In this document: piece after piece, positions 15,201 through 61,682 of the stretch | Position numbering within the stretch: the stretch's first letter is position 1 | Layout: each line of letters starts with the position of its first letter | NCBI GenBank assembly: GCA_964016885.1 | Contig: OZ024743.1 | Span: forward strand, 325,810,001-325,874,000 | Origin: Eledone cirrhosa | Lineage: Eukaryota | Length of the DNA: 64,000 bases | Direction: 5' to 3' | Program-made: the position numbers and the translations under genes | Notes under the pieces: generated by a model | What the model was told of the DNA's origin: nothing | The model's input: only the letters and a program-made list of their open reading frames with translations | Database searches by the model: none

Positions 15201-17610
15201 GCTCACTTTGAAATCATTTTCTTAATTTGAACCGATATATTCTCACTTAGAATTACAAAAACGCTATGACATACAAGAGCAACAATCGAACTGTGGTAAG
15301 TACTGTGCAAGCAAAAAGCAATAAGAAGTGCAGCTGACATACCAGTGTCATTTAGAAGTATGGCCTCTGTGGCTACAAGGGCAGCAGGTAAGAAAGAAAA
15401 ATTTCAGTTAAACATCCACACAACTTTGAAGAGATTGTTGTGTATTGTCATTAGGCAAATCTAACTTTCCAGGTATCACCAATCACATTGTCCTGGAGAT
15501 AGGAGACACGCACAAACATGTTTAATTAGCAGTAGCATTAATACAGCACGATTCATAACAGGAGCATATATAAAAGTATATACAATATGTTTATGCATAA
15601 TTAACATACCTAAGACTTGCTATGAGTATTTTAAGCATTTCAGTAGCAATGTGATGAAAATATATATGGTTTAGCATATTATTGCTTCAATAATAAACAT
15701 CACTGCAGATGGATAAACATCCTGAAACAGTTTCATATAGCCACTGATCACATATTGTATATGTTTCTATACACGCCTCTAATATGCATGTGCGTTTAGA
15801 GATAGCCCCACAGGTCAATTCCAGTATTTATATATGACAACATTACTATCAGAATAGGCAAACGCATTCAGTTCAGTATATAACTCAGGACAATGTTAGA
15901 ATTTGTGTACAATAATATTATTAGCCCATTTCTGACAAGCTTTCTGCAAAGTAATACGAATAATTAGTATCATGTCAGAAACATTAATAGTCATCAAATG
16001 CTTACCTGATCACCATCATTGTTTTTATATCCACTTTTCTATGCTAAAATGGGTTTGGAAGGGGTGGTTTGAGAATGTTTTACAACCAGATTCTTTTCCT
16101 GATGCCAACCCTTTCAGTTGCTTCTTACAACACACAGAAACACAGTGTGCCTATTCTTAAAACCAGGATACACACAGCATATACATATCTTTTAAACTAC
16201 CCTAACCTTCTCATTCAGTATCACCACACCTTCACCCCTCTTTCTGTGATATATACCTCATCCCACTCGCCCAAACTCAACTTACATTCTTAGTGCGCTA
16301 CACACAACCACTCACACCCATCTGGCCACTTCCTGAAATAGTAGACAACTGACTGCTACATACCATTCCATCATATATTTTTATCACAGTTCTAGATTTT
16401 ACATATATCTTCTAATTTGGTACATACATGCACGCATGCAGATAGTCATACAAGCTTAACAAACATTCTCACACACAAACTAATAATCGCATAAATTCAC
16501 TCAAACATACACACAAAAAAATACATTAAAAATTCAGACACCCATATTCACACACTAAACACTCATACATAAACATACACACGTGTCAATGATACACAAA
16601 GCACGCACACACTCAAAAGAGAAATGCGCATCCATGAAATATACTGTCTGGAGACATAACAATACAAATGATATACCTGGACTCTCCACCTCGGCCCCCA
16701 CCCCATACTCTGGACTACTCACCTACTCTCCTCACCCATCTTAAAAAAAGTAAGTTTTTCCTCTTCAACCTTCTAACCTCCTCTCTCTCTCCTGATGAAG
16801 GACTTATGTCTGATACATTTATTTACTTCTTTCTTCTTTATCTTCATTTCCAAGTGTGAACCTAATAAGACTGTTTTTGTATCTCCGTGTTCACCTTGTT
16901 TATTCTTTATATATATAGGTAAGTTATTCCGGGTTGAATCGGAGGTTACCACAGTAAGTAAGGTACTCAATACATAGCAGAGTATAAAAGTTTTAATATA
17001 GTTGAGATTCTACAGGACTAGAACCGTTTCATTCTTTAGAAATCATCAGGAATCTGGCTTTCCAAAAATAAATGTAGTGGTATTTATATCTTTTCAGGTG
17101 GTAGGAGAGGGTGGGGAATTCATTAAAAGCTAATTCTTTAAGTCTATAGTTTATATTTAGAGTGACAAAGGCAGAAAGGATTTTATAAACAGGTTCAGAA
17201 TGGAGTGCCACTCCTTATTTTTAAGTTTCTCTTAAGCTAACAATGCCTATATTTCAGGTGTCTATAAGGTGGTTGTGGGTTGGTCATGGTTGATGGATTT
17301 AAAATATTGGGTGTCTATCATTATTGTCATAGCTTAAGAGAAATATGACAATAATGATAGACACCCAATATTTTGAACTGGTTTATAGAATTCTCTTGGC
17401 CTTTGTCACTCTAAGTAGAGCTTTAAAGAATTAGCTTTTAAAGAATTTCCCTTTTCTTTCAACCAATGACCTCCACCCATCCCACTCCCCACCCTCTCCT
17501 ACCACCTGAAAAGCTATAAATACCACTACATTTATTTTTGGAAAGCCAGATTCCTGATGATTTCTAAAGAATGAAACAGTTCTAGTCCTGTAGAATCTCA
17601 TCTATATTAA

Positions 17611-17650
<40 letters not shown>

Positions 17651-20600
17651 TGAAAGCATTGACAGTCACTAGAATGAGTACTCAATGCCATAAGAGAGAT
17701 TAATATTTTCTGTGTTAAGGACAGGTTTGATTCTTGTTGTTCTGATGCTTCTCCTGTATATCCACAGGGTCATTGCCCAGATTGTGTGAATGTGTATATA
17801 AATTCATAGTATACTTCAGTTGCTTAATACAGAATCTAATGTATGCACATGTGTATGTGTGTGAATATTTACATGTATGTGAATGTCTGTGTGTATATGT
17901 ATTATAATAGAATATGTATATTTAACTTCATTATTTACAACATTTTCTACTGAATATTTTAATTTACAATCTTTAATTAGTAGGCTAATGAAATTCAAAT
18001 AGAGCTATAACTGCAAGAAGCCCTTCTTACAGCAATGGCATGACTATAATGTCTGAAAATTTATGTCAATCATACTGGATGACCTGCAACATCTAGATAA
18101 GAACATTCCTAGATGTTTCATTTATTACATATCATTAGGATGAGCGTCAACCACAAAAACCATGCCAAAATGGAACGTATGAGTGAGAGACAGTCATCTG
18201 GTCTGTTTAATCTCTGAACATGACAAACCTACATAACCCATGAAAGCATGTAAAATAAACATAAAACAATGATGATGATGTCTATATCTACATGAATAAA
18301 TTCTGATGATTTAAGAAGTTGCTTATAATATTACACCTCAATATAGACTACAAAATGCTATTAAAAAAAGGCAGAAGAAATCAGAGTTTTTAGACAGAAG
18401 ATGCCAGAAGTAAAATAGATCAGTGGATCTCTATCGGTTTCAACAATAAGTGTTCCAGTTGTTTGATCAACGGAACAGCCTGCTCATGAAACCAACCTGT
18501 AAGCAGCTAAGCATTCCACAGATATGTAGCTTTAACATAATTCTCAAGGAGATTTAGTATAACAATGTTTTGACCTAATAATGGTAAAGTGAACCTCTTA
18601 ACTATTCAGCCTTGCTGTCCACAAGAAAAGTAGAATATCATAATAGAAAGAAAGAATCATGAAGAGCCAAGGAGAGAACAAGGTGGAGAGGTAAAATATA
18701 TGATGTGAAAGGATGACCTTGCAATGCTTAAACTGAATTGGATGTTGCGTGCAAGAGAGAAGAGTGCACTGGTACAAACGTGATGCATATGAATGATGAT
18801 TGTTGAGTTTAGAAGTTCTAGGAGTTACAAGTGGAAGGAAGATGTAGTAGTCTAAAGACAACCTGAACAGACATAATGAAAGCCTATCTCAAGAAGCTGA
18901 ACCTCACAAAGGAGATGGCAAAGAAAAGGGGCATAAAAACGATGATGAAAAAAAATGTTATGTTTCTATTACCATATATACTTGAATATATGATGATCCA
19001 AATATAAGCTGACCCTCTATTTTATACCTAAGAAATGGGCAAAAACCCAAACCCTGTGCATAAGCTGAGCCAGCTAATGAACACATTATTTAGTTGGCAC
19101 AGTTTTGAAATTCCACATGACCACTTTACAGTGTGAACTGGGTGCTTCTTGTTATGACACCAGCACAGGACCGAAATCTCTAGCGTTATGCAGTAATACA
19201 GACGACCCACTTTCTCATGAGCACAGGCTGAAGCATAGATATATTATGCACCACCTTCAAAAGCACCCAGTACACACTGTACATGTGGTTGGCGTTAGGA
19301 AGGCCATCCTGCTGTGGTAACCAAGCCAAAATCAGTTCTGTATGAGCAAGACATGATCACCTGAATCCAGATCCCCCTAGTTGCAAAGCAAACAACACAT
19401 CCATGCTCACATTAATGTGGATGGTTTGAAGGGTATTCATGATATCAGTACTGATTGATAAAATATCATTGACAAGAAAGAAAATGAAAAGCACAACACA
19501 TGACATTTTCCTCCCACAATAAAAATTTGCTCAATCATTCTTGCCCAGAACAGTACATCCCTTCCCTCTGTAGAACATGTTAAGATAAGGCACAGTAGCC
19601 AGTAATCACATTAAATCTAGGTAGTTAGTTTAGAACATTAACCATATAAAAGGAATGTGTGTCACAACGCAAATGACTATAATAATAGTTGAGAAAATCT
19701 GCTAAGTGACGGAAAAAAAAAAAACAGTAGCATCTGCAATACATTGGTCTGCAATTTTCTCAAATATTTATAGTGATCTACTATTATTATGATCAATTGC
19801 ATTGTGACGTACACATTTCAAATTTTCCCAAGGAGTCATAAGTCAATTGTTTTGTTTATATAAAAGATTGATAATGAAAATAAAAATCTAGGTTCATAAC
19901 AATTGAAATAATGAGTTACAAAGACTCATAAAAACAAATTCACTTAATGCATGTGAATATTCTAGTCTATTGTGAACTACTGATGAAACTTAACAAACAG
20001 AAGATGCCCTGGAGTTGGAACAGCATAGTGGACAGTAAGAGACAGGTATGAAATGACTGTGAAAATGTGGGTAGCAGATAACAGTATCAGATACCTAAGA
20101 AAGAAGTTATGAATACAACAAGTATACATAGCATGGAAAGAGGCTGAAAGAAAAATGTTTGCGATGTGATGATCAGAGACGTGAGGTGTTCCGTATTGCA
20201 AGGCAGTGTGTATTGGGATGCTGTAGGGGAAAAAATATATTTGCAATGACACTGATGCACTTTGATACTCAAAGGAAAGAGGCCAAGAAATGCTATGAGA
20301 AGCTGTTGAATCTGGAGAATGGATGAAAGAGAGATTACCCCACCAGCTGATCCAACAGAAGAACCAGCTATCGAAATTAAGAGTTCTAGGGTCAATGAAG
20401 CAATCAAGAAGATGAAAACTAGTAAAGCTGCAGGTCCATTAGAGATAGTCGCTGAGATGCTAAAAGCATCAGAAGTAGAACTAGTAACCAGCACACTCAA
20501 TCAGGTAATACATATCCAGTGACGAGCACAACAGTACAATCATAAATTACTACAAGGCCAAAAGTGATGCTCTAGAAAGGTTGCAACAACAGAGGAACAA

Positions 20601-29600: not shown

Positions 29601-32600
29601 GGTTAGCTTTGCCTTTCATCCTTACAGGGTTGATAAAATAAAGTACCAGCTACACACTGGGGTTGATTTAATTGACTTTCCGCTCCCCACAAATTGCTGG
29701 CCTTGCGCCTAAATCAGAAATCATTTTTAATTTTGAAGGCAAAATTTAACTGAAACGGTAGCATGAAACCACCAGAGTAATGACTACCTAGAAATTAATG
29801 AACTCTGTCAGCTACTGATTTTCTCTTGATTTTCATAACTGTTTTACATCTATTTTCTATACTTGCAATAGGTTACACAGGTCATCACATTCTGAGGCTA
29901 AATAAGATAGATGACTGTGCTCCACACGATTCATTCTGAAATGGTTTCTACAGGTGAATAGTAGAAAAGAGAGTTGAATGGACCTCCACTGGTTTCGATG
30001 ATGAATGTTCTAGTTGTTCAATCAATGGGACAGGCTGCTTGGCCACTTTATATGTTAATTTCATGAGCAGTCTGTTCTACTGATTGAACAACACCCATTG
30101 TCAAAACCAATGAAGGTTTGTACAACTCATTGTTGCCATTCACTCACTCTCACTTCTTGTACTCCCCTTCACCTCTCATGTTGTATATGCTGTTTTCTAT
30201 TGAATCTCCTTAACAATAATCTAGTAGATCAATATACTATATCTACTAATAGCCTCAGTCATTAACATGTGACAACCTCTCTAGTGACAGTGCCATGAAA
30301 AAACACACCCAGTCTGCCCTGTAAGGTAGTTGGCATTAGGAGGGCATCCAACCATGCATGAGCAAAATTGGTCATTCAGACCCATCAGCCAGCATAGAAA
30401 TTGGACATAAAATGTTGATGATTAAAATTAGCTGATTGCAATGTACCAACTAATTAACTATTTTATATGAAATAATTTACTGACCGCAGCATAGAAGATG
30501 TAGAAGACCACCACAGCCGCAAGGGAAAGGACGTAAAAGAGTGCAGTAAAGAACAACAATCCTGGAATAAAAAGTGGAAAGACATGAGATATAACAACTA
30601 TTAAAAACGACAAAATTAGAATAAATTAAAAAGTTCACATTAACTCATAACAGGAAGTATCTAAAACAGGTTTGTTAATTCAAATATTTATAGAATCTTT
30701 ACTAGTGGACAAATCTTTGTCTTTAATATTAAAATAAAGACTAATGCAGTTGAGTTAAACACACACTGGCAGTGACTCAAATTGGATAAGGGTATTAGCA
30801 TGGTCAATTAACAAAGAGTGAAAAATAGTGAATGGAAACTGAATTTGTTGAATGGAATAGATTAAGAATTAAAAAAATAGTAGCTCTAAAAGCAGGCAAT
30901 TATTCTCAACAGAAATCTATTTTTACACTAACCAGTGGAAAATAATTTATTTACATTATGTATTGTCAATCAACAGGAAATATCAGACCTAAGCTTCACT
31001 GATGAGGTGATCAGACTGAAACATGTCCAGTATTGTCTCCTGCACTTGTCAAAAGTATTAAAATAACAAATCACTATCTAATATTGTTTTTCATCACTAC
31101 ACAATTCTAGTAAGTTTTCTAACACTTAATGCATTAAATGATTTTTCTTCTAAATTTTTTAAGTCAGTCTCCAGCCTAGGGACTCATCAGGCCAGAGTTT
31201 GTCTCAGTTTCACTGATGTTAAGCAACTGAGAGGAAAAGATGCCTCCACTAAGACAGGATGTCGGTGTACCACAACCAGTATGTATTTTCTGCTGAGTTA
31301 ACTGGAACAATGAGAAATGAAAAGTTTTGCTCAAGAACACTATGCCGCTGAGTCCAGGAATCCAATGCACATGACACTACAATCGTGAGGACAACACTGT
31401 AACCACAGAGCTATGCACTGTCACTTTTTTAATGCTCCATACATTAACTCTTATCATCCTATAATGATTTAGCAGAAATATCTAAAAACGGACTTGTTAA
31501 TTCAAATGTTTATAGTATCTTTACTACTGGACAGATCTTTGTAAAAATTTGCAGTAAACTAAAGATCTGAATTTGTAATGTAATGCAGTCATATTGCTGC
31601 TTTGTATTTTTCAAGACTGCCTTACTATTGCAGTGTCAGGTGGTACAAGTCGTTAATTAAATATAATAACACTAACTTGATTAATGTTTTTCATGCAAAT
31701 GGTTCTCTGAATTATTTATAAAATATTCCAAACTTCTTGCCCGTCACACCTACATCAACACTTCAAATACTACGATTACCTAAGGAAAAGTTTGTCTAGC
31801 AAAATAAAACCTGTTGACATAAAATAGGTTCGAGACACATGGAGTGGACTTGTTCCAGTTGTTCGATCAACAAAACAGCCAACTCCTGAATTAACAAATA
31901 AGTGACTGAACATTCCACAGACACATGTACCCTTAATGTAATTTTCTGTGAGATTCAGCAAGGTAGCATGCGACAAGGGTGGCTCTCAAGTACACTTCTA
32001 TGTTGTTGATGGAACAATTAGGAAGTGTGCATATATTACTGGATGTGGACCAATCTCCACAAGGAGAGTCCTGGCTGTGCCAGTCGTATATTCAGTCCCT
32101 CCCTATGGATGGCTTGTCTGATGACAGCTGTGATCTTATTGAAATGTGGTAGCTTTAGGTAGCATATATTATTCTTAGGGGCATGTGTCCTTGTTCTTTT
32201 AAGTGATGTCCCTCTGGCATTTCAGTGTTTGCTGAGAGAAGTAGGGTAGTCGTTTTCAGAGAGAACTCTTTGGAATTCCACCATGTTAGTAGTCTATAAG
32301 ATGACGTGCAAAAAATGTAGCTCTTTATACATCGGAAGAACCATATGGAACACATGACAATGAGAGCCTCTCGACAGATGCTGCAACCAAGACATAAGGT
32401 CACCATAGAGGTGACTGAAAGGAATATGGGAAATTTAAGGATTAAGGAGATAAATAGGTCAGAAATGCACGAGGCAGAATTGTTACTGCAGCAACCCCGC
32501 ACATACGCATGTGTTTTACAAACCCAGACCAGTTAGGGAAAAAAACTGATTGCTTGTTTGTTTTGTCTTGGACTGTTTCAGTTTCGCGTCTGAAAAGAGG

Positions 32601-38600: not shown

Positions 38601-41600
38601 TTATTTTCTATATATTTTATGGCTTGTTTACTGATTTATATATTTTTGTAGATGCCTGGAGTCAATGAGAGATCACAGATTACATGAAAGATTCATGGTT
38701 TTAAATAAGTATAGTCTTAAAATATTATATATTGTTTATTGATTTATTTTTGTACAGATCTTGGGTGGATAAACTAAAAAGTTTGGGACTCCCTGGTCAA
38801 ATATTTTCCTGTTATATGGTGTGATAGAAATTCAGCTGCTATTTCTAGCAGGTCTATTGACCATGTAGGGACTTTCACGCAGTCCAATTAGAAAAGTACT
38901 GACAGCAGCTATTTACACAAAGAAAGGTAAAACGAAATAAATTTAAAGAAAGACTACTGCTTCTGATGTAGTTAGTAGTCACATGTGAGTAAGTGAGAGA
39001 GACTATAAATAGATGCTTTTTTAACACACTACTGTAGATGTGAGTCACAGGAAAAATATATCACATTGATAACTACCAGAGGAGAGGACCTCCATCAGTT
39101 TCGACAATGTGATTTCCAGTTGGTGAAATTAATGTGTAAATGACTGAGCATTCCACAGATATGTGCCCTTAACGTAATTCTTAGGGACATTCAGCATGAC
39201 ATATAGGTTTGCTTAATCAGAGCTGACATGGAGACAAACAAGTTCACCCAGACTTAGAACGTGACAACCTAATTCATGCAAGCATGGAAAATAGACATTA
39301 AATGACGATGATGATGATGACAACCATGACAAGTATGTGTGATAAGGCTGGCCCTTTGAATTATAGGTAGTCAACTCGACAGGCTTCCAAACTATTTCAC
39401 TTACAAGGCATGGGTCAACCCAAAGATATGGGAAATGACACTTGTCCAAGATGCTAGCCATACAGTGGGATCAAACCCAGGACCTAATAATTACAAAGTG
39501 AACTTAACTATTTGGTCATATTACGTCATAGAACTATTGTTACACCTAAAACAAAGTCTATCCTCTCCAGAACAAATGTTAAACCCCAGAAAGAACAGTT
39601 TGGTTGTCTTGTTTTATCTTAAGAACTACCAGCAGAATCTACTCGTATTTAACACCTGGGCTACAATTTTGTTGTTAGTTTTTTTTTGTATTTGTAGTAT
39701 TTAAAACCAGAATATTAAATATATTGATAATGCACACAGCAGAATCGTGCTAAATAAAAAAAAAATTAATGTAAAAATGACGTTATATATAGATATAAAT
39801 GAAAACGTTATCTAAACAAAAATGTCAGTTTATATATATGTGTGTGTGTGTGTTTATACAATCACGTCTGTGAAGCCGTGTGGAGTTGTGTCCTTGAGCA
39901 AGACATTTTATCTCAGGTTGCGCCAGTTCAATCAACACTTGGCAAATGCATAAACAGCATCAACTTCTATTGGGCCATCTCTGAGGATCAAAACAACTGA
40001 GCTTCTACTTAATCATTCTATCAGCTAGAAGTAGTAAAAAATTTGCTTAAATCTTATCCTTTGGAGCACACACACATACTGGGGTACCAAAAAGTTCCTG
40101 GCTTTGGGAAAAAGAAAATACAGGAAGATCAGTTAATTATGATATTATTTAACCCATGTCTAACCCATGCTAGCGTGGAAGATGGACGTTAAACGATGAT
40201 GATGACGACTCCCCTCTCACATTGACACTTATTGCAGTGGTCCTATTTCCCCTGTGAAGGTAACAGCTCTACCCTTTCACGACACCCTTAAGCCAGGAAC
40301 TTCTCAGCATCCCAGTATATATATATATATATATATATTCGCAATCCCCACACAAGCCAGGTTACTGACTACCCCAAGGAATGCGCAGAGCTCATTACTG
40401 AATGGTAAGCAGGCATTTTCACTATTGAAGACCAGAATGTACGATCTCCACCACCTATGACACCGGACTCTATTACAACCATGGAATTTACACTTGCAAT
40501 GCTGCGACGTCACCTAAAAAATAAACGCAACCGTGTCTCTCCTGGTCTTGATGGTGTTACGTACCTGCTTCTTAAACGTGGTGAGTACTTCCTTCTGCAC
40601 CAGTTATCACGCTTCTTCCAATTCTGTCTGAACAACGGTGCTACTCCAGAAGAGTGGAAACTGCCAGTGTCATTCCTCTGTTCAAAAAGGGTGACCGCAC
40701 ATCACCTGTGAACTATCGTCCAGTCAGTCTTACTAGCTGCATTGCCAAACTGATGGAATCCTGTGTCAGAGAAACACTTTGGAACTTCTGGAGCTCTCAC
40801 AGTCTTATCCGGCCCTCGCAATTTGGATTTATCCCCAACTCCAGCTGCTGTGATCAACTTATCGACTTTCTTGAGGACATCACCCGGATCACTGATGGCG
40901 GCTCATGGGTGGATGTTGTTTACCTTGACTTTGCAAAAGCCTTCAATTCTGTGCCACACAAAAGGCTTATGGCAAAACTCTCTGCAATGGGTGTGAAGGA
41001 TGATCTTTTTAACTGGTTGAAGTCCTTCATTCTCACTCGAAGAGAGGTAGTCACGGTTCTGGGACAGCATATGGGATGGCATCTGGTGTACCACAGGGAT
41101 CTGTTCTTGGCCCCCTTTTGTTTGTGGCATATATTAATGACATAGATGCCAACTTAAAGAATGTCACAGTACTAAAGTATGCAGATGACATCAAGCTGTA
41201 CCTTGAGATAAAAAGGGCAGATCCTGAACACTATAGATCTTGCTTGCAGTCTGACCTGGACACAATGCAACAATGGATCTCAGACTGGCAACTCAAGCTA
41301 GCTGTGGACAAGTGCACCACCATGCATTTTGGGAGTAAAAACCCAGCGTCAACATACTCCCTCCACAGCACTAATATCAAGAAGTCTTCTTGTGAACGTG
41401 ACCTGGGCATTACGGTCAGCAGCGATTTGCATTGGACGAAGCACGTCTCTAAAATTGTCAAGAGGGCCGAGGGTGTCTTAGCATCACTCAGCAATACCTT
41501 TGTCAGCCGCTCTCCAGATATCTATTTAAGGTTGTACATGGCTATGGTGCGAGCACACTTAGAATTTGCATCACCAGTCTGGAACCCCTATCTTGCTCAG

Positions 41601-44600
41601 AACATTGACCGCCTGGAAACTGTTCAGAGACGTGCAACCAAGCGAATACCCTCCATCAGGCATCTACCATACTCTGAGCGCCTTGCTTCCCTGGGTATGG
41701 ATACATTGAAGCTCCGACGCCTGGCAACTGACTTGGTAAACACCCACAAAATTGTTAAACATCTTGCCAACAACAACCCTGAGTACCTTTTTGATTTCCA
41801 TGTGTCTAACACACGTGGACATGCCCACAAAGTCAGAAAACAGCACAGCTCCCATGACTTTCGGAAACATTTTTTCATGCTCAGAGTTGCTGAAGCATGG
41901 AACAAACTACCTGCATCAGTTGTTAGCTGTCGAGACATTGCATCCTTTAAGGCCTCCATGCTTCCCGAGATCCGCCAACACTACAGCTAATGTTCCCCCT
42001 CCATACACATACACACGTATACCATCACTCATACACTATTCACTTCTCTGACATTTGTGTATTATTCTATGTACTATACATACACCTTTGACGAGTTGTA
42101 GTGCACCTGAGCACTTTACACAATAATTTCATTATTATATATATATATATATAAATGGTTATTGTTGGAATGATTTTCATGATGGATCTGCTTAACGCTG
42201 ACTTGGGGATAAACAGGTTCTTTAAGACATGTAAAATAATAGCTGTGTGTGTGTGTATGTAGTCTGTTGCTGCTCAGTTTCTTGATGGATGCACTCTCTC
42301 AGGAGTTAAGTCAAGAAATATACTCAACATGTATTGAGTACTATTTGTCTCATTTGCTAAATAACACACACAATGTTCATGAATAATTATATACATTAAG
42401 TTGTGCATTAAGCAGCCAAAGTATATAATAAATTTATATCTGTATATTCAGTAAAGAAGTAACCAAGATATATAAAAATAAAAAACTAACTACCAAGATG
42501 AGTGCTAATAATAGGTAAATTCATACACGTTTCCTTGTGGTTTAGATGATATACACACCTTCTGATGAGAACCCAAAAAAGGTTCAAAGATCGATTCAAG
42601 ATATTTATCATTTTTTTCAATTTAGAGAAATACATAAAATTTCACATGTTTACATGTCTATATACTCATGGGTAATTTTATATACACATTTACAATCTCA
42701 GTTACCTCTGTATTGAATATATACAGATATAATTTTCTTTTAATTAATAATCACATACACATTCTCTAACAAGGAAATTAGATAGTGTTAACAATATAAT
42801 GAATTTGATTTACTTGGACAATGATTGTCACAATAACATTAAGTGATAATCTACAAAATTATGTTATGTTGCAATGTAAAATAGACTACAGCAATGCAGC
42901 AGTCTAATAGATGCACAGTTATTGACTGCATCACCATTTCACACACTATCGCGCCATTAAAAAAACTGATAAGTCTATCAGCTATTCTCATTCATTATCT
43001 GTTTTATATTCATTGTACTGCCAACACCATACACTCCCTCTAACCACCCTGTCAAATTCCAACATTCTTGTCATACACACTACATACTCTCCCTATATCA
43101 TTCCATTTTGAACTCCACCACATATATCATGCACCCATGACACTATACTTGTCATCCTTCCCTCTTACCTGTCACCAATCCTATCGCCTTCTACCTGGTC
43201 ATATCCTCCTAGATAGGATCATCCTTCAGTCATGATATATCAACCTCACTCAGATTAGTGTAAGGAAAAAAAAAAATGCATTCTGAACATGCTGTAAGGG
43301 GTTGGTGATAAGAAGAGCATCCAGCTGTTGAAACCATGCCAAAAAGGGATGAGAAAACTCCTCAGTTGTGTCAATGGTGCAATAAACTTTCTACTGTTGG
43401 TATGGACTTGATAAAACACACCCAGTACATTCTGAAAGTGATTGGTGATAAGAAGGACATTCAGTCATCAGTTGTGTCAAAGACATGACAACCTCCCTAG
43501 TGCATACCTGCCCAACTTTTGCTATCAGGGAAAACAGACATTAAATGAATATGATCTGCCAATGGCTATTTTAAAATTAGATTGTTATTATTAGGAATGT
43601 GAAGCAATGTGTTAATTCTATTCATTCTTTAAACTTGAATTAATGTTTAGCCCCCTGATCAAGTAGACTTATGATCAAAGTTTCCAGTCGATTCCATCCT
43701 GTCTTTTTTGTTTATCACAATAATATTGTCCAATGTGTCTTTCCTATTTTTAAAACATCAAGGTTTGACATGGGAAATTTGGCTGCTACTTTCTGTATAT
43801 CAAACGATTATATATATGTTCCCTCTTACTAAGAATGCAAAGAGGGGGAATGAAATAGGTTTTATAGTTTTTCTCATGTACACATGGGGTTTTTATAGTT
43901 TTTCTTGTGAACACAAGGGAGTGTAGAGTTTGTCTAACCCCCCTTTCCCTTTCTTTTGTTGTTGAATTTCTTTTTCTTCTATTCTTCATTTCCTTATTGC
44001 TTTATATAAATACTTCTGTAAATAAATGTATAATATTTCCCAAAGTGCAAATTGTACCGGACTAACAGAGCTACCAAACCACCAAATGCTTCCCATATGT
44101 ATATATGCACACATCTTCACCATCATCATCATCATCGCTTAACGTCCATGTTCCACACTTGCATGGGTTTGGACGGGAGTTTTCCCACTTGAGGCAAGAG
44201 TGGTTGTCTTGCTCGCATAGGACTGTCTGGCGGGTTTTCTACAGCTGGATGCCCTTCCTAACACCAACCACATTTACAGTGTGGGACTGGGAGGTTTTTA
44301 CCGTGTTACCTACACGGCCACATTACAGCGTGGACTGTGTGTTTTTAGTCGTGACACCTACACGATCTCATTTGTTTCGGCCTGGATGTTGTGGCACCAA
44401 CATAACTTTACATTGAAAGGGGCGGTGTGGATGGGTGGGGGTGGTGGGATGGGGGTGTATTTTGTTAGAGGTGCCTACTGACTGTAGTAGGTTTTACTTT
44501 GTATTTAGGTAAGGCGGGTCTTCTCTATTACTGAGTACCGCCAAAGATCTCGGTCCAGTGACATTATCTTGGAGAGGTGTAAGTGTGTGAGGTCGGAATT

Positions 44601-47600
44601 TATCAGGTCGTCCCAGGTTTTTCTGGGTCTGCCTACTCCGTGGCTACCGTCTATCTTTATTGCCCTGCACTTTGTTATACAGCTGTCGTCTTTCATGCGC
44701 ATCACGTGACCATACCAACGTAGCCTTCTCTCGAGTAAACAACATCTGATCCGTCTTATTTCTAATTTTTCCCTTAGTTCGTTTATGCTTTGCCGTTCAC
44801 GTATATTACTATTACACATCCAGCGGAGCATGCAAGCTTCGTTCCTCTCTAGTCTGCGTATATCCTCTGCACACAATGCCCAGGTCTCACTGCCATGCAA
44901 CATTGCTGTTCGTATGCAGGCATCATACAACCTGCCTTTCATTTTTAGGGAGAACCCTTTAGCGGCTAATAGTGGTATAAGCTCTCTGAACTTTTTCCAT
45001 CCAGTTCTGACTCTAGCTACTGTACTTTCAGAGCACCCTCCCCCACTGCTGATTTTGTCACCCAGGTAACAGAAGCTGTCCACTATTTCTATAGAACCCT
45101 CTGCGCAATTGAAAGAGCTAGTATTTTGTGGGCACTTGCTGCTACTTATTGCACCAGAGCACCGGCCACATGTAAAATCTATGTTCTTAGTTAGCTTACC
45201 TGTGATCCCACTACATCTTTTATGCACCCATACTTTGCATTTGGGACATAAAATGGAGTTTCTACCTACGCCTTTCCTACACACTGAGCATGGCCATTTC
45301 ACGGAAGGGACCGACGCCTTATTTTCTTTATATAAAGAAATCATTATTGTTAATTAATCATTATTAACAATAGTATTATTATTAAAGCTGTTATAGCTGA
45401 GAGAGAGAGTGGTGACGAATTTTCTTTTTTTTTCTTAAGCTATGCAAAAGATACTGTTTATCTTTAAATCATAAATTTGGTGGTTTCAGTCATTTGTTAA
45501 ATGATTTATTCTCATGTTGTATATATGTAATTAAGTACTGTATGTATGTGTATATATATATAAACTTAATAAAGAAATCGCTATTATTAATCAAGAAATT
45601 ATCAAATTTTCAATCTGACTTTTGTATTATGTTATTGCCCCTACATTTCATCATCATCATCATCATCACCGTCTTACGTCCGTTCTTCCACGCTAGCATG
45701 GGTTAGACGGGTTGTCCTGTTGTGGGCAGTGTCTGGTCGGCTGAACATGCCTTGCTCATACAGGAACTGATCTGGCTTGATTTCTACAGTTGGATGCCCT
45801 TCCTAACACCAACCTCATTTACAGTGAGTGCTGGGTGCTTTTTCGTGGCGCCTACACGTCCACTTTACAGTGTGGGCTGGGTGCTTTTTTTTGCTGTGGC
45901 ACCTCCACGACCACCTTGCGGTGGGGGGTGTGGGGGCATATTGTCTATATGCTTCAGCTTGTACCCATGGGAGGTCGGGTACTCTGTATTACTGCGTGAC
46001 GCCAGAAGTCACGGTCGTGTGTCATTGTCTTTGAGAGGTGCAATTGGGTAAGGTCACCTTTTATCACCTCATCCCAGGTCATCTTGGGTCTCCCCACTCC
46101 GCGGTTTCCATCAACTTCTAGTGCTCTGCACCTTTTTATGCAGCTGTCATCCTTCATACGCATCACATGTCCATACCAGCGCAACCGCCTCTCCTGCACA
46201 CAGCATTTGGTTCCTCTTATGCTCAGTCTCTCTCTCAATTCATTTATGCTTTGTCATTCACGTATATTACTGTTACACATCCATCGGAGCATACAGGCTT
46301 CGTTTCTCTCTAATCTACGTAAGTCTTCCACCTTCAGCGCCCAGGTCTTACTACCATGCAACATCGCTGTTCGGATACACGCATCATACAGTCTGCCTTT
46401 CATTCTGAGGGAGAAGCCTTTTGCAGCTAGCAGTGGTAGTAGTTCCCTAAACTTCTTCCATCCCGTTCTTACCCTAGTTATTGTACTTTCTGAACACCCA
46501 CCTCCGCTGCTAATTCGGTCACCTAGGTAGAAGAAGCTGTCTACTGTTTCTACAGGGCCCTCCCAGAGATTGGTGGTACTTGTTTCCTGTGGCTGTTTGC
46601 TGTATCAGCACAGCTGCTGCATGTGAATCCTACATTCTTAATTAAGCTTCCTGAGATCCCGCTACATCTCTTGTGTACCCATTGTTTGCATTTGGGGCAG
46701 AGAATGGAGTTCCTACCTACACCTTTCCTACATACTGAGCAAGGCCATTTCCCTGAGGGGATCTGGGTTCTGTTTTCTCGTCTTCTTACAAGGACCTTAG
46801 TCTTTGTCATGTTGACTTTGAGACCCTTTCTTTCTAATCGCTGCTTCCAAGTTTAGAATTTCTTCTCTAGTTCTACCATAGATTCAGCTATAAGTGCGAG
46901 GTCATCTGCATACAGGAGTTTCCATAGGCATCCGGTCTTAAACTCCTCCGTTATTGCCTGCAGGACTATGATAAACAGGAGGGGGCTAAGAACAGAGCCC
47001 TGGTGGACCCCAACCTATACGCTAAATTCCTCGCTATACTCATTGCTAATCCTAACTTTGCTGACTGCTCCCCTATACATGGCTTGTACCGCTTTCACAA
47101 ACCATTCATCTACTCCTAGTTTTCTAAGAGCCCACCAGATTACAGAACGTGGAACTCTGTCAAAGGCTTTCTCAAGATCGACAAATGCCAAGTAGAGTGG
47201 CTTACTTTTAGCTAGGTACTTTTCCTGTAATTGCCTCACAAGGAAGAGGGCATCAGTGGTGCCTCTCCCTGGTACAAACCCAAATTGCATCTCGTCTATT
47301 TTCACCCGGTCCCTAATCAGCTGTGCTATAACTCTTTCTGTTACTTTCATGACCTGGTCCATCAACTTTATACCTCTATAGTTTCCTCTATCTAGTGCAT
47401 CGCCTTTACCTTTGTAGCAGTTGACAATGATGCTACTGCACCAATCTTTTGGTATGGCACCTTCTAGTATTACCTGGTTAACGATACATGTGGTTATAGT
47501 GTGACCTACAGACCCAGATGCCTTCAGCATCTCGGCAGCTATACCTGATGGACTGGTTGCCTTCCCCATCTTCATATCTTTGATTGCCTTACTTACTACG

Positions 47601-49557
47601 CTGCTGCTGACTTGTACTGTTGGTCCCTCTATAGGGTCTACTTGGGGTAAGGTCTCTTCTGCCCATGCATTCTCCTCATTTAGTAATCTATCATAATGAC
47701 TCTTCCATGCATCTTTCTTCTCAGCACTTGTGAGAGTAAGCTCACCTTTATCATTCTGGATATACTTCTCTCCAATGACATCACAACTATCTCTGACACA
47801 CTGCTTCGCAATCTTGAATACCTCCTGTTTCTGGTCCTCACGTTGCAAGACATGCTTGAATTTTCTATCCTCTGCTTCCCTCCTAGCTAAGTATACTTGT
47901 CGCCTAGCTTCCCTCTTGGTCTCTATGTAATGTACCCTGCTCCCCCCCGTTCTTCCATTCTTTCCATGCCTGTCTCTTGGCCTTAACTGCTTCATCTACC
48001 TTATTGTTCCACCACCAAGTCACTCTCCTCCTGCTTGAGGTCTTACTCCAACCACAGACCTCATCCGTCGCCTCTAGTAAATTATTTTTTAGGAACTCCC
48101 AGTTCTCTTCTACATTAAATATCTATCTGTTCTTCTTTACTGTCATAGGCGTTGAGTAAAATATCTTTAAATCTGTTACTGGTTGAGGGGACTTTCAGCT
48201 TCCAGATCTTTCTTCTCCAGGTTGGCCTCTGTTTCCGGGTTTGTCTAGTTCTGACCGTGAGGTCACTGACAACTAAGCTATGTTGGGATATACATTCGTT
48301 TAATATAACTTTGTAACATCTAAGTTTACACCGTATATGAGCAACCACTTGTGACTAAAGAAATCATTATTATTTTATTATAATATAGGACAGTAGTCAA
48401 TAAATTGCGATGTGAATTATAAATTGTCAGTTAAGCTACTTAGGAGTGGGCAACAAAAACACCTGCAAGACGGGTTTGCTGTTTACTTAGTATATCCAAA
48501 CACTTACGCATACATGTATGTCTCAGTGAATAATATTATTCCAAATGCTAGGAAGTAAAAGAAGAATAGCAACATTTTGATTCCTGAAATAATTGAACTC
48601 CAGAAGACAAACAGAGACTAATAAGAAACTGAATAACTGTACAGCCTTTTTGTCTGTCTGCCACATGGGCACTATAATCTGTTGAAAATGTTCTAAAATT
48701 CTATGCAGAAGTCATGGAATATGAAGTTAAGGCAAAAAAAGAAGGGGTGGGTGGGTTATATGTCTCTCTCTCTCTATATATATATATTATATATATATAT
48801 ATATATAATCATCATCATCATCCATCATTTCATTTTACGTCCACTTTTTCCCTGCTTGCAAGGGTGGGACGGGAACTGATTCTGGCTTGATTTCTACAGC
48901 TGGATGCCCTTTCTAACACCAACCTCATTTACAGTGAGTGCTGGGTGCTTTTTGCCGTGGCACCTACACGTCCACTTTACAGTGTGGGCTGGGTCCTTTT
49001 TCGCCGTAGCACCTCCACGACCACTTTGCAGTGGAATGATATGGGCCCCAGTCCCTATCATCTCTTTTCTACAGCTGAGTAAACTGGAGCAATGTGAAAT
49101 AAAGTGTCTTGTTCAAGGAAACAACACATCACCCGGTCTGAGAATTGAACTCACAACCTTTCGATTGCAAGGCCAATGCTGTAACCACTAAGCCATGTGC
49201 CTCCACATATCTATATATATATCTGTGTGTTAAAGAGTGAGATTTAAGTTTAACATGTTTTATTATTCATAATCCCATGTTTCGCAAATGACCAGATTGA
49301 AGCCTTAATCTATTACAATCAGCTTCAACTCTGGGATTGATTTCATCATCAGATGCAATGGAAGATGTTCATGATTATGAATAAAATATATTAAACTGAA
49401 ACTTTCATCTCTCATTCTTAATATAAACACTCTGCATATTACACCAATATCAACCAGATATCAGTGTTAATACACACTTTTAATACTGAATATCCAATTC
49501 ACATAAAAGTTCCAACAGGTGCCACCTATAGTAATATATTATTATCCACCAACTGGC

Positions 49558-49588
<31 letters not shown>

Positions 49589-50613
49589 TTGCGAGGTTTT
49601 TGATATGAAATTGTGTGTCAAAACAAATATTGTTATACTTGAGGAGGGTCATATTTGTGTAATATTGCCAGAATTAATAACAGAACACACTCACTGTTTG
49701 GTTGGTTTTCGCTTTTCGCTTCTGTGTCTTTTATATCGGTTAATTTAATTTATTCGCTCCTCAATGCTGCCATTGACTGACCAACGGTAAAAAATACAGA
49801 TACAATATAGACACAAACACATATATATAGTTTATCAAAGTTCTTTTGTTGCACATCTGCAACATCGTCAGTGGTGCTATTGTTTCCTCCCGGTGCATTG
49901 TATTTTCTACGCCATCTTTATTTAGTCTGTTTATATATTTTTTTTTTTTCTTTGCGCATGCGTTTGCGTGTGTGTTCATGATTGGGTGACTATGTATTGG
50001 TTAATGTATTCTATCTTTACTAGTGTGTGTTTATATGTGTTTGTTGTTATTGTGCTTGTGAAAAAATGAATGGAATAACACCCAAACAAACAACACTGAC
50101 CTAAGAGAAGTATAAATAAATAAATAAATAGATAGATAAATAAATAAATAAATACATACACAAGCACAATAACAACAAACACATAAACACACACTAGTAA
50201 AGATAGAATACATTAACCAATACATAGTCACCCAATCACGAACACACATCAAACAAAACACTATACACACATGCAAACGCATGCGCAAAGAAGACAAAAA
50301 AAAATATATATATATATATAAACAGACTAAATAAAGATGGCGTAGAAAATACAATGCAATGGGAGGAAACAATAGCACCACTGACGATGTTGCAGATGTG
50401 CAACGAAAGAACTTTGATAAACTATATGTCTTTGTGTCTATATTGTATCTGTATTTTTGACCGTTGGTCAGTCAATGGCAACATTGAGGAGCGAATAAAT
50501 TAAATTAACCGATATAAAAGACACAGAAGCGAAATGCGAAAACCAACCAAACAGTGAGTGTGTTCTGTTATTAATTCTGGCAATATTACACAAATATGAC
50601 CCTCCCCAAGTAT

Positions 50614-50651
<38 letters not shown>

Positions 50652-55326: not shown

Positions 55327-55378
55327 TCACCTGACTTGGGTCATGTGCTACTGTAGTGGTTTGTTTAGCATTCAGAGA

Positions 55379-56239: not shown

Positions 56240-58050
56240 CTGCCATGCACAGTAGCCGCACCTGCTCTAGGGTCAAGGTGAACGGCTACCTCTCGGAGCC
56301 GTTCGAAATCGCGCAGTCCATCCGACAAGGGTGCTCTCCCTTCTGTATGTAATGACTCTAAAGCCACTGCTGCGGAAATGGGAGTTGTTGCAAGGCATCC
56401 CGTTGGAACCGGGATTGCGGAAAGCGGTGTCGCCCTACGCCGATGACGTAACAGTAATGGTGTCGACGGCCTCGGAAATCGGGGCGATCGGCACCTTACT
56501 GGAGGAGTACGAAAGGTTTACAGGGGCTAAGCTGAACCGGGACAAGGCGATCGGTCTGCAACTTGGCACGTGGGGGGGGGGGGGGGGAAGATCGCTGCCC
56601 TCCGATGGCGTCGTCGGGCGCTGGACGGAGGGCCCGGTGAAGTTGCTCGGGGTCTGGTTCGGACCAGACCTCCAGGAGGAGAAGAATTGGGGTGAGGTAA
56701 CGAACAGGGTGTTTGCACTGACCCAGAAGTGGGCCGAGTGCAAACTGTCCCTGAAAGGTCGGGCGGAGGTGGCGATATAGCGTCCGTCATCTACTACCGC
56801 CAAAATGGAGTGCGCACTCTTCCAATCCCTTTGGAAAAAGCGGGCTCCTATGGTGAGGAGATCCATCTGCTGTCAACACGCTTCGAAAGGAGGGCTGGGG
56901 ATGCCGTGGCTATTGATACGTAAACACGCATTAAGGCTACGGCACCTCCAGGTATTCCTCACCGGTCAACCGGTGTGGGCTCCGTTTGTGAGGCGAGCCT
57001 TTCCCAGACTCGTCTCGCTCACCGAGCTGCAATCCTGGGTCAAGCAAAGACCGAGAAAACTGGGCGCCTGGCACACCGAGTGTGCCCAGGCGCTCACGGC
57101 TCTCTGGCAGGCGGACCCGGCTGTCAGTGGAGAATCCACCTCGTCATTCTATAGAGGGTTGGTGGTTAGCAGGTGCGACGACGCCCTCGGAGAAGCCCTA
57201 GGCATGGAGGAAGACGAACTAGCCAACCTGTTCGGTAGGACATTCAGCCCGGGACCCATGGATAACTTCCAGAGGTCCCTGGCCTGGCAGTGCTACCGAG
57301 GGGCTCTGCCCGTTCGAGAAAGGCTCTACAGACACGGGCGCCCGGGTAGGGACCCCTCGAAAAAGATCTGTCCCAGATGCGTGTGCAACGAGGAAACCGT
57401 TGCACACGCATTGGTACACTACTCGGGCATTGCCGATCTGTGGGGCTATGTCGAACAACTGCTGTCAAGGGTGGGACCGATCTGGTTGACCACCGAGTCT
57501 ATTGTAACGATCAAGCCGCCTCCCCTCTTCAAAAACGAAGGAGAGGCGGTGTTTCTGTGCGTAATAGCCATGGCGAAAGAGGTTGTATGGTGGACGCGTC
57601 TGAAAGGACTGAGGTCAGACACCTTTCTCTCTGGCCAACAACTGGTCCGTTTCTTCCGATAACATTTCGGAAGAAGGATCAGGATGGAAAGAGAGGTGCT
57701 GCACCCCAGCCGTTTTTATGAAAGATGGGTGAAAGTGGCGAGAATGGCCCGTGTGAATGGGCCTTAACTCTACATCAGACTATAGGTGAGGAAGATGAAA
57801 GATCAAGGGAGCACCCCCTCTCTGTGCTCCTGAGGAGAAGGGTTGCACACTTTTTCCGGGGGTGTGTGCGACCCCCCAAGGCGCCTCCTCCCTATTGAGG
57901 ATTTTGTTATTAAATTTATTTTTGTTATATTTTATTTTATTTTTATATCTTGTTATTGCCTCCTCCTTATTGAGGACGCCTTTTTATGTAAACTCCCCCC
58001 CATTGTACTTGTCCCACTTTTTGATGCCCTGGTGGCAAATAAAAAGAAAG
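56240..58050 (+). mobile_element. L1/Tx1-like LINE 3' portion (RT YADD to zinc-knuckle C-terminus), GC-rich
   Basis: SPYADDVTV, VKLLGVWFG, KGGLGMP, CPRC...ETVAHAL; ends with AATAAA and an A-rich tail. Confidence 0.9.
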
Positions 58051-58089
58051 TTATATATTATTTTCTCTTGTTAAGTCTTCGCAAAACCA

Positions 58090-59021: not shown

Positions 59022-59119
59022 CAAAAGATATGACTTATCAAGTGCGTGTGTACGTTAGCGTTCTCTCTGTTTCACTCACTGCTTCCGTCTTTCTCACTCG
59101 CTCCATCTCTCATTATTAT

Positions 59120-59480: not shown

Positions 59481-60297
59481 CTAAACATAGCCAATATGTG
59501 TGTGTGGCGAAATCCGACACTAAAGGAACATGTTTAGTGTTAGGAAATAACGACCTATCACCTCAATGAATTCAACAATAGATAATAATTTCCGTTGACT
59601 ATTTTGACTTCGTACCTGTCTTTCGAGAGAGACCTTATATATAGGAAAATTTGAGGTTCTCACAGAACACTCACTGGCAGACTACAATAGACACTCTCAG
59701 ACTCGCACTCTAACAGGGACACTAATTTACTGGCGTTTACCAGCGTCCGCTGGCAAGGGCCAAATTTCATTGAAAGTTAATTCATTCAGAATTTCTACAT
59801 TCATTGAGATACAGACCGGCCAACCTCTAAAAACCCAAACGAGGAGTACCATGAAAAAAAAAATGCCCCAAAACAGGGAGAAATGAGCCAAAATGGGGAA
59901 ATTTTACATAGTGAAAGCTATACCCATTTTCACAAGAGAAATGGGTGGGAGTTTTCCCCGTCGGACGAGGAGAGTTGACAGGTCTGGAGATATATGTGTG
60001 TGTGTGTTGAATTTTGACAGCTATGACATTTGGGATTGTAATTTCATTGTCAGCATATTTGTTAGGGGGAAAATGTGAACTTTGCTCTTATTGTAATTTT
60101 ATGTACATTGTTTATATTGATATAAACAAAAACATTCAAGTAATTATTTATTTCAAACACATTTTAACGACGCTTGCTGCACGCCGTTTCACCATACGAT
60201 CCACAACACACATTATTTTCTTATTCCTTCAAAATACTTTGTTGTTTCTCATTCATCCGTGGTTTCATTGTAAACCATGTGAACAAATAAAAATATT

Positions 60298-60580
60298 AAT
60301 TTAGCGGTTTGTGGTAAGAGCGTTGGATTTACGGTCATGATGTCGTGGGTCCGATTCTTGAGTTGGGTTGTGTGTTATGTTCTTGAGCAAAACACTTCAT
60401 TCATTTCACGTTGCTCTACTATACTCAACTGAACATGAGTACCAGTAATATCTGGGAATTTAACCCTGCGATAGCCTGGTGTCCTGTCTAGAGGGGAGTC
60501 ATATATCTCTGTCGCTTCAAGCCACGGAAACCGGGATAAGCACCGGCCTGATGAGCTTCCGGGCTCCAGACAGACTCTTT
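60298..60580 (+). mobile_element. tRNA-derived SINE
   Basis: tRNA-like head (gtggtaagagcg...ggtccgattc), conserved body, 3' gaaaccgggataagcaccggcctgatgag. Confidence 0.8.
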
Positions 60581-61037
60581 AGACACTTCATAGCAAAATA
60601 ATTGAGGAAAATCTTCTTCCTCGCGGCAATATCACATCAATCAACAATTGGTTTCATCGACTATAGCAATACATCATAGCTATTCTCTCGACTTCAGCAA
60701 TACATCATAGCTATTCTCTCGACTCACTGAGACTCACTTCCCATGAACTCGACCAACAAACCACTCATCTCACAACTCCTACTATACCTCTACAAATGAA
60801 CCAAACAAACTACCCAGTATCACTCCCGCGATATATATATATATATATATATGAATGGACCTGCTATTTTTCTCTAAAACATTTTTTTTCAGATTCCGCC
60901 CTGCCTGTCCCCTCAATCTTTCTAATGGTGAAGGACTAGCGTCCAAAACGTTAAGACCCTCTTCCTGCTATTTCAATCATTAAACTAATATATTCTTTCC
61001 ATATACTGTACCGTCTGTTTTGTTATTTCTGTTTACC

Positions 61038-61092
<55 letters not shown>

Positions 61093-61093
61093 A

Positions 61094-61282
61094 GTTTATC
61101 CTGGGTTCAATCGGGGGTAACCACAGTAAGTAAAGTACTCAATACAAAGCAGAGTATAAATATTTCTCCCGAATGAAACAGTTCTAGTCCTGTAGAAGCC
61201 TTTCTATATTAAATATTTATAATCTGCTTTGTATTGAGTACCTTACTTACTGTGGTTGCTCCCGATTGAACCCGAGATAAAC
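61094..61282. mobile_element. Miniature foldback element, same family as 16917-17614
   Basis: 72-bp arms 61094-61165 / 61211-61282; spacer contains gaatgaaacagttctagtcctgtagaa identical to 17569-17595; (TA)n on both sides. Confidence 0.88.
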
Positions 61283-61296
61283 ATATATATATATAT

Positions 61297-61682
61297 ATGA
61301 ATGTATGTATAGCATATTTGGCAATATACCGTATGTTTAATTAAAAACATTTTGAAGACCTTGCGCTATCATTTTAAAGAAGTGACTACGTCACTTCTTT
61401 TTTCGGCAAAGGAAGGGAGACGGCAATCGCTCTGTATAATCAGTTCCTGATTATTACTGGAATTCTATAAGAATCCAGTCTCTATAATTTTCGGCAAAGT
61501 CGGGACTACGTTTCTCTGAAGAACACCAACAGTGTGAAACAGAATGTCAGCTTGTCTCCCTTCCTTTGCCGAAAAAAGAAGTAAGTGACGTAGTCACTAC
61601 TTTAAAGCGATAGCGTAAGGTCTTCAAAATGTTTTTAATTAAACATACGGTATATTGCCAAATATACTATACATACATTCAT
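61297..61682. mobile_element. Foldback element with a hammerhead core in its spacer
   Basis: Arms 61297-61421 / 61554-61682; 61516-61548 reads CTGAAGA-ACAC(caaca)GTGT-GAAACA(gaa)TGTC. Confidence 0.85.

What the first reader, a model, noticed from the sequence alone, without database searches (positions are those of the whole stretch)
16917..61682. Recurrent class of miniature foldback elements each carrying a minimal hammerhead ribozyme core
Seen: at least six inverted-repeat elements (16917-17614, 42431-42734, 49232-49419, 49628-50620, 61094-61282, 61297-61682). Most are unrelated in sequence, yet each contains CUGAnGA-[pairing stem II]-GAAA or part of it. Stem II differs every time but still pairs (GTTGCA/TGCAAC, ACAC/GTGT, GAACC/GGTTC, TTC/GAA), and most elements abut (TA)n. 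Known: Penelope-like elements carry minimal hammerheads in their pLTRs and often have an inverted pLTR at the 5' end. Inference: these are non-coding, non-autonomous Penelope-derived palindromic elements that would be misannotated as MITEs or missed, possibly a retrozyme-like system that is abundant in this genome.
Basis: partly seen in the sequence, partly recalled or inferred. Interest (0 to 1): 0.85.

Follow-up and report, generated by a model that had tools for sequence, protein, structure and literature searches.

The report
Head-to-head Penelope and retrozyme insertion scars
These hairpin-like elements are two short end pieces of a hammerhead-bearing repeat joined head to head in TA microsatellites; three of the six come from protein-coding Penelope-type jumping genes and at least one from a short non-coding repeat that those genes likely move, so they are likely by-products of a known insertion process, not a new palindromic element.

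Summary
The observation largely holds. Four inverted repeats are clear and two are degenerate. All six carry a hammerhead core or part of one, from five high-copy families. In 36 random 10-kb stretches full motifs number 21 against 0.25 in shuffles and are enriched in foldbacks (10 of 22 elements, p=3e-5).

The 'non-autonomous palindromic class' reading fails. E1/E5 (family A) and E4 (family B) are truncated ends of autonomous RT+GIY-YIG Penelope-like elements (Hydra-like; Neptune/Nematis-like), and E4 holds the ORF's last 17 codons. E6 (family C) is a 317-nt non-coding tandem unit of retrozyme type; E2 probably is too; E3 is unresolved. Junctions differ between copies, so the foldbacks were likely made afresh at each insertion: both 3' ends face outward, a tail is on one side, and the arms usually share one donor. 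Families A and C have canonical, not minimal, hammerheads.

The layout is published for Penelope-like elements. Of some interest: retrozyme units carry the same insertion signature, a 222-nt tandem arose from family A's parent, and one junction joins unit C to another element's ORF. The scan noted similar things before, in this genome and others.

The parts
16917..16988 (-). E1 one-sided 72-nt tail (family A); in parent copies it continues into the start of the RT ORF
16989..17289 (-). E1 left arm: 5'-truncated 3' end (pLTR) of the family A Hydra-like PLE
17005..17055 (-). Complete type I hammerhead motif, left arm of E1; predicted cut after GUA at 17011
   Evidence: cleavage predicted only
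17298..17377 (.). Small palindrome at the E1 head-to-head junction
17323..17614 (+). E1 right arm without tail, apparently lacking one internal repeat (about 190 nt); followed by (TA)18 at 17614-17649
17548..17598 (+). Complete type I hammerhead: stem I 6 bp, stem II 3 bp with a U-U at its base, stem III 4 bp with an 8-nt loop; predicted cut after GUA at 17592
   Evidence: cleavage predicted only
42388..42466 (-). E2 tail plus short inverted arm (family D, old, 75-80% to relatives)
42484..42736 (+). E2 long arm (family D) with a broken core at about 42562-42601 (G12 lost); relatives show tandem periods of about 350 nt in 2 of 25 loci
49232..49365 (-). E3 long arm (family E) with a core at about 49280-49352, long stem II and degenerate stem III
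49370..49557 (+). E3 short arm and tail-like extension ending in the (TA)14 shared with E4
   Evidence: the extent of the tail is inferred
49586..49626 (-).
49627..50060 (-). E4 left arm: 3' UTR of the family B PLE, core with G12 lost
50060..50621 (+). E4 right arm without tail, followed by a TA run at 50618-50650
50062..50115 (+). Last 17 codons and stop of the family B RT+GIY-YIG ORF
50381..50408 (+). Hammerhead core with stem II that covaries with a sister family; stem I weak (one mismatch in 4 bp)
61094..61160 (-). E5 left arm: family A tail only
61162..61282 (+). E5 right arm: 3' half of the family A hammerhead, end and tail
61297..61420 (-). E6 short arm (unit positions 191-317 of the 317-nt family C unit)
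61421..61682 (+). E6 long arm (unit positions 53-317), core at 61516-61539 with stem I eroded in this copy
61683..61721 (+). E6 tail = first 39 nt of the next family C unit

Best explanation
Each foldback is two 5'-truncated copies of a hammerhead-bearing repeat end joined head to head, usually in (TA)n, and was likely made once, at insertion, by a Penelope-like reverse transcriptase/endonuclease. Shown: both 3' ends face outward; 3' ends fall at two fixed sites per family, so one arm often has a tail; junctions vary and often overlap by a few bases; both arms usually carry the same subfamily variants; families A and B are ends of RT+GIY-YIG elements; family C is a 317-nt non-coding tandem unit. 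Inferred: the protein nicks both strands of a TA run, each 3'-OH primes cDNA at one of two internal start sites on RNA from one donor (a tandem, multimeric or circular transcript), both cDNAs stop early, and they are end-joined. Also inferred: family C, and probably D, are retrozymes moved in trans by the same machinery. The hammerhead is a passenger of the 3' end. It would cut multimeric RNA but does not set the ends of the insertion.
For: ORF linkage, family A: 9 of 13 tail-continuing matches run into a PLE RT; pLTR-ORF-pLTR copies with GIY-YIG in L303 and L304. Family B: ORF directly upstream in many of 30 loci, full pLTR-ORF-pLTR in L306, and the tail runs into the ORF 5' region in L025. 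Family C: of 22 tail-continuing places, 17 run through a whole non-coding unit, 1 is a deleted unit, 4 stop early, and none runs into an ORF. Two 3' ends: family A has 43 ends at the tail end and 16 at 72 nt inside; family C has a cluster at the tail end and 16 at 33 nt inside. Junctions: E6's junction occurs in 0 of 29 other loci. Same donor: both arms carry the minor allele in 43 of 60 (C), 7 of 12 (A) and 4 of 6 (B) informative comparisons, against 13-19% in random pairs. The tail lies only on the arm with the shorter 5' reach in E1, E4 and 4 of 15 simple family C foldbacks, which a copy of the longer arm cannot give. TA at an end in 23 of 45 short foldbacks against 10.9% of random spans. 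Published: inverted 5'-truncated copy and one-sided tail (PMC8557442 passages; PMC3846280 passages); both strands nicked and extended, two internal start sites giving the tail, predicted dimer (PMC11167929 parts 1-2).
Against: The twin-priming step itself is not observed. Shared variants between arms could also come from later gene conversion. Two family C junction pairs recur (208/35 in L064 and L073; 180/66 in L069 and L076), with tails placed differently, and L078/L079 share one as near neighbours. Only 10 of 63 random inverted-repeat spans hold a full motif and 17 a core, so most foldbacks here do not carry one. No parent or partner ORF was found for families C, D or E. Families D and E rest on 25 old loci each; tandem evidence is 2 of 25 for D and none for E. 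E1's own arms disagree at 5 of 6 diagnostic sites (L031), possibly through misalignment across an internal repeat. Minimum-energy folds of the isolated window motifs did not give the three-stem hammerhead fold.
Confidence: 0.85

Rival explanations
1. A distinct class of palindromic, non-autonomous elements that move as whole foldbacks.
For: Foldbacks are frequent and enriched for hammerheads. Sixteen other loci align along nearly all of E6. Two junction pairs recur.
Against: Those full-length alignments have different breakpoints, and none matches E6's. Many family members are single arms, tandems or ORF-linked copies.
Confidence: 0.04
2. The second arm arises by fold-back self-priming or template switching onto the first cDNA (self-priming idea in PMC3846280), not by a second target-primed event.
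For: Arms usually share a donor; junctions often overlap by 1-11 nt; E1 has a junction palindrome.
Against: A fold-back copy is a sub-sequence of the longer arm, yet E1, E4 and 4 of 15 simple family C foldbacks have the tail only on the arm with the shorter 5' reach. One junction joins two unrelated RNAs (L277).
Confidence: 0.12
3. Family C (and D) spread without Penelope proteins, e.g. as minisatellites or through LINE machinery, and resemble PLE insertions by coincidence.
For: No similarity between unit C and 18 PLE-containing loci. LINE remnants are abundant in the window.
Against: C shows the two-site 3' end with a 34-41-nt tail, head-to-head inversion, partial tandems and TA targets like A and B, and no poly(A) end. 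One C copy is fused flush to a Hydra-like ORF.
Confidence: 0.08
4. MITEs of DNA transposons that picked up chance hammerhead-like words.
For: Terminal inverted repeats in TA context.
Against: Arm lengths vary and are asymmetric, tails are one-sided, ORFs are RT+GIY-YIG, and motifs are about 80-fold above shuffles with stems that vary across families.
Confidence: 0.01

Closest known systems
Inverted 5'-truncated pLTR insertions with optional tail of EN+ Penelope-like elements (Craig et al. 2021, PMC8557442; PMC3846280; Frangieh et al. 2024, PMC11167929)
   Same: Head-to-head layout, one-sided tail that is the start of the next unit, partial tandems, microsatellite targets, hammerhead near the 3' end.
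   Different: Here both arms are often so short that only the pLTR remains. Tails are 34-72 nt against the 30-40 nt quoted. Family A truncations pile up at an internal TG/TA tract.
Hydra-clade PLEs, including Hydra-1_Obim of Octopus bimaculoides (PMC8557442 section 11 and supplement)
   Same: Family A parent: DKT, CxCx5C linker, CxH motif, C-terminal GIY-YIG, ORF under 3 kb, (TA)n targets, canonical hammerhead.
   Different: A different family; RWK reads RWR/RCR; compared by eye only, no tree.
Neptune/Nematis-type PLEs
   Same: Family B parent: RT, CX4CxxC linker, GIY-YIG with two internal cysteines, Asn-rich insert, (TA)n targets.
   Different: Its hammerhead has an extra base before stem II and a weak stem I; the clade was not resolved by a tree.
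Metazoan non-LTR retrozymes (Cervera and de la Pena 2020, PMC7229834; review PMC7761336; Li et al. 2026, 10.64898/2026.07.22.740005)
   Same: Family C: about 300-nt AT-rich non-coding unit, one type I hammerhead per unit, monomers and tandems.
   Different: Carries the PLE tail and head-to-head inversion. The word 'inverted' does not occur in the main text of PMC7229834. Circular RNA and cleavage are untested here.

Membership tests
EN+ Penelope-like element (families A, B) | Single ORF with PLE RT and C-terminal GIY-YIG | tested here: met
   Motifs and ORF order. Pfam RVT_1 (E 0.0014-0.0036) and GIY-YIG (E 0.0013) are below the curated cut-offs, and family A's RT piece had no Pfam hit.
EN+ Penelope-like element (families A, B) | pLTR formed by a partial tandem; tail continues into the ORF | tested here: met
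   L303, L304, L306
EN+ Penelope-like element (families A, B) | Hammerhead in the pLTR | tested here: met
   Complete in A; core with covarying stem II in B and its sister family
Hydra clade (family A parent) | [quoted passage not shown] | tested here: met
   against the list; RWK reads RWR/RCR; my CxxC..E pattern missed, though CDLC lies before E in the printed sequence
Hydra clade (family A parent) | Groups with Hydra RTs in a phylogeny | not tested
   only a by-eye comparison with the Hydra-1_Obim excerpt
Neptune/Nematis (family B parent) | CX2-5CxxC linker and CCHH in the endonuclease | tested here: met
   which of the two clades was not resolved
Non-LTR retrozyme (family C) | Non-coding unit of about 300 nt in tandem with a type I hammerhead per unit | tested here: met
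Non-LTR retrozyme (family C) | Self-cleavage and circular RNA | not testable with these tools
   needs RNA data or bench work
Non-LTR retrozyme (families D, E) | Tandem non-coding unit | tested here: inconclusive
   D: period about 350 in 2 of 25 loci; E: 0 of 25; PLE ORF hits in 5 of these 50 loci, of which the 3 viewed are separated from the element by TA runs
MITE | Fixed-length terminal inverted repeats and uniform copies | tested here: not met
   variable asymmetric arms and junctions
Palindromic element mobile as a unit | Same junction in dispersed copies | tested here: not met
   0 of 29 loci share E6's junction; for E1 and E4 only one arm was used as query

The most novel reading that the evidence does not exclude
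This genome preserves direct sequence evidence that retrozymes are born from and moved by Penelope-like elements through priming on both target strands. Non-coding units carry the PLE tail and head-to-head signature; a 222-nt four-copy tandem arose by joining the first 72 nt of family A's ORF to its hammerhead (L242/L243); and one insertion fuses a retrozyme arm to a Hydra-like ORF arm (L277), naming a candidate helper. The hammerhead load would be of the order of 170,000-250,000 motifs, above the 126,247 reported for axolotl.
Probability: 0.55. Interest if true: 0.55.

Novelty: new member of a known kind. Interest (0 to 1): 0.33.

Why it matters
Practically, short foldbacks in TA runs of such genomes should be filed as Penelope or retrozyme insertion scars, not MITEs or miRNA hairpins (Rfam's best hits here were miRNA families). 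Mechanistically, how PLEs form inverted ends and which enzyme moves animal retrozymes are stated as open in the papers read. The tail-side asymmetry, the shared-donor arms, the 222-nt derivative and the chimeric junction give specific RNA and protein pairs with which to test both in vitro. The elements themselves are ordinary.

Tried and rejected
Rfam scan: no hammerhead family; miRNA hits reflect hairpins. Pfam accession PF26215 (recalled) is not in the search library. Walking inward along family A ended in TA/CA tracts in all 30 loci and 23 pattern matches, with unrelated repeats beyond. I first read this as a non-coding unit and rejected that once the tail led into an ORF. A tandem test for family A found 0 of 58 before the script timed out. 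RNA: no RNA holder listed; two runs of unknown kind laid as contigs say nothing on expression or cut sites. Arm-versus-arm identity was not informative. Family B's junction list was swamped by TA matches and is not used. The stem I pair counts across 37 clusters come from a scanner that required pairing, so they show variety, not an unbiased covariation test; the shuffle control and the B versus sister-family stem II change are the real tests. I labelled CxCx5C ORFs 'Nematis-like' from recall until the paper showed this is the Hydra motif. Literature: six searches listed no paper on cephalopod retrozymes or on retrozymes with PLE tails and inversions; Cervera 2014 and Lunse 2017 were seen only as cited.
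Full report
Setting. The window lies on contig C4 of a 3.0-Gb genome and is 37% G+C. The best named relative of a retroelement protein from this genome is from Octopus vulgaris at 65%, so the host is likely an octopod cephalopod (inference).

Observation. Self-BLAST shows clear inverted repeats at E1, E4, E5 and E6. E2 and E3 are degenerate but score above about 98% of random windows. The cores and stem II pairings are as described. Rfam found no hammerhead family, so I wrote a scanner for core, stems I-III and the NUH site. In 36 stretches of 10 kb taken at round coordinates it found 21 full motifs against 0.25 in dinucleotide shuffles, and 26 cores against 2.4. With stem II up to about 90 nt there are 30 motifs, 18 of them in inverted-repeat spans that cover 10.5% of the bases. 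Counting each span once gives 10 of 22 elements, p=3e-5. The converse is weaker: 10 of 63 spans hold a full motif and 17 a core. Short spans touch a TA run in 23 of 45 cases against 10.9% of random spans. Extrapolated, this is 58-83 motifs per Mb, a rough figure from 360 kb.

Five families. First-look candidates (not copy numbers) were 3651 for A (E1, E5), 1078 for B (E4), 2552 for C (E6), 1195 for D (E2) and 143 for E (E3). In every element the hammerhead strand points outward, so the arms are joined at their 5' ends. The 3' ends fall at two fixed places per family: 43 at the tail end and 16 at 72 nt inside for A, and two clusters about 33-41 nt apart for C. This is the published PLE tail (PMC8557442 passages; PMC3846280 passages), which PMC11167929 traced to two internal start sites of reverse transcription (parts 1-2 of 4 read).

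Family B is an autonomous element. Many of 30 loci run straight from an RT+GIY-YIG ORF into the E4 arm. E4 itself holds the last 17 codons at 50062-50115. L306 has pLTR-ORF-pLTR. The linker CX4CxxC and a CCHH-type endonuclease place it with Neptune/Nematis. Its core lies about 250 nt after the stop. A sister family (about 56% protein identity) has a different stem II that still pairs and a 4-bp stem I, whereas B's own stem I has a mismatch.

Family A is also autonomous. Walking inward ended in a TG/TA tract with nested unrelated repeats, but a search for tails not followed by TA gave 13 matches with one shared continuation among the 30 loci returned. Nine run into a PLE RT, two belong to one 222-nt tandem, one jumps back to the hammerhead and one stops after 40 nt. 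L302-L304 show the endonuclease, and L303 and L304 a second copy of the family A sequence downstream. DKT, CxCx5C and CxH motifs fit the Hydra clade (section 11 of PMC8557442), of which an Octopus bimaculoides family with (TA)n preference and a hammerhead is already listed (supplement). The family A hammerhead is canonical, with a 4-bp stem III.

Family C is non-coding. Its copies are pieces of one 317-nt unit in single, tandem and inverted arrangements, and the tail is simply the start of the next unit. The same tail test gave 22 distinct places among the 30 loci returned of 202 matches: 17 continue through a whole unit, 1 through a deleted unit, 4 stop early, and none enters an ORF. PLE ORF pieces occur in three of these loci, two beyond TA runs and one on the opposite strand. 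A related 311-nt unit forms a six-copy array with an internal inversion (L175). This matches non-LTR retrozymes (PMC7229834 passages; PMC7761336 passages; bioRxiv 2026.07.22.740005 parts 1-3 of 5). Family D is old; 2 of 25 loci show a period near 350 nt. Family E shows none in 25.

Not mobile as palindromes. The whole E6 sequence retrieved 29 other loci; none has its junction. Among the head-to-head junctions of family C only three pairs recur, one of them between neighbours 4.5 kb apart. Family A junctions also differ among loci. Many copies have one arm only.

How the foldback forms. Arms of one insertion share subfamily variants far more often than random pairs (C 43 of 60, A 7 of 12, B 4 of 6; random 13-19%; tandems 15 of 18), so they usually come from one donor; gene conversion is not excluded, and some pairs may be counted twice through overlapping loci. 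An earlier scan note (e1-9539494) suggested different parents for the two halves of an element in another genome; here that is the exception. One of 128 head-to-head junction contexts among ten library entries joins two families: unit C fused flush to a Hydra-like ORF end, each arm ending in a tail and TA (L277). Fold-back copying would make the short arm a subset of the long arm, but in E1, E4 and 4 of 15 simple family C foldbacks (L061-L073, L076, L077) the tail is only on the arm with the shorter 5' reach; 8 have it on the longer arm, 1 on both and 2 on neither. The simplest reading is two target-primed cDNAs, one from each nicked strand. The anole protein nicks and extends both strands and is predicted to be a dimer. 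This step is inferred. The predicted cut sites lie well inside the insertions, so cleavage does not define the ends, in line with that paper's finding that hammerhead mutants still insert.

What is and is not new. The layout, the tail, TA targeting and hammerheads are published for PLEs, and the PLE origin of retrozymes is proposed from phylogeny. In six searches I found no paper on cephalopod retrozymes or on retrozymes bearing the PLE tail and inversion; the library lacks most subscription papers, and bioRxiv supplements were not seen. The O. vulgaris repeat paper (part 1 and passages) does not mention hammerheads in its main text and lists 65 recent MITE families with 65 insertions, which one-off foldbacks would explain (untested). 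PMC8969392 was seen as passages. Earlier scan notes reached similar readings in this and other genomes; they are unchecked leads, and the Hydra suggestion and PMC7229834 came from them.

Verdict. Real and non-random, but ordinary in kind: new families of known elements. Interest 0.33, carried by the sequence evidence on twin priming and on retrozyme birth and trans-mobilisation.

Noticed in passing
L242/L243 (G000:C1:67880700-67881600): Four-copy 222-nt tandem made of family A's hammerhead region, tail and first 72 nt of the ORF: a retrozyme-like unit born by internal deletion. L260 shows a similar jump.
   Followed up: partly
L277:1512-2580: Family C arm fused head to head, without spacer, to the 3' part of a different Hydra-like ORF; each arm ends in its tail and TA. 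Candidate helper element; a single case.
   Followed up: partly
L175:5980-8053: Six-copy array of a 311-nt hammerhead unit related to family C, with a strand switch inside, next to a family B sister element.
   Followed up: partly
window 30999-31021 (+) and 31144-31190 (-): Two further hammerhead-like cores facing each other; the first has a palindromic stem III but no clear stem I; no copy in the 36 random stretches.
   Followed up: partly
   Followed up: partly
L218-L240; window 49558-49585 and 61283-61296: TA tracts inside or beside one element are re-used by other families, giving nested clusters; E3/E4 and E5/E6 share a TA run.
   Followed up: partly
L095:2867-4225; L306: Family B ORF has a long Asn-rich insert, as described for rotifer Penelope elements.
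   Followed up: no
L152-L187: 9 of 36 random 10-kb stretches hold PLE ORF pieces; 37 hammerhead clusters among the loci then in hand, 17 with palindromic stem III and several with very long stem II.
   Followed up: partly
window 40585-41990, 44505-48138, 56271-57662: Broken LINE-type reverse transcriptase ORFs of about three kinds (by eye, no family scan).
   Followed up: no
window 62029-62236: 39-bp tandem, 5.3 copies, 98% matches.
   Followed up: no
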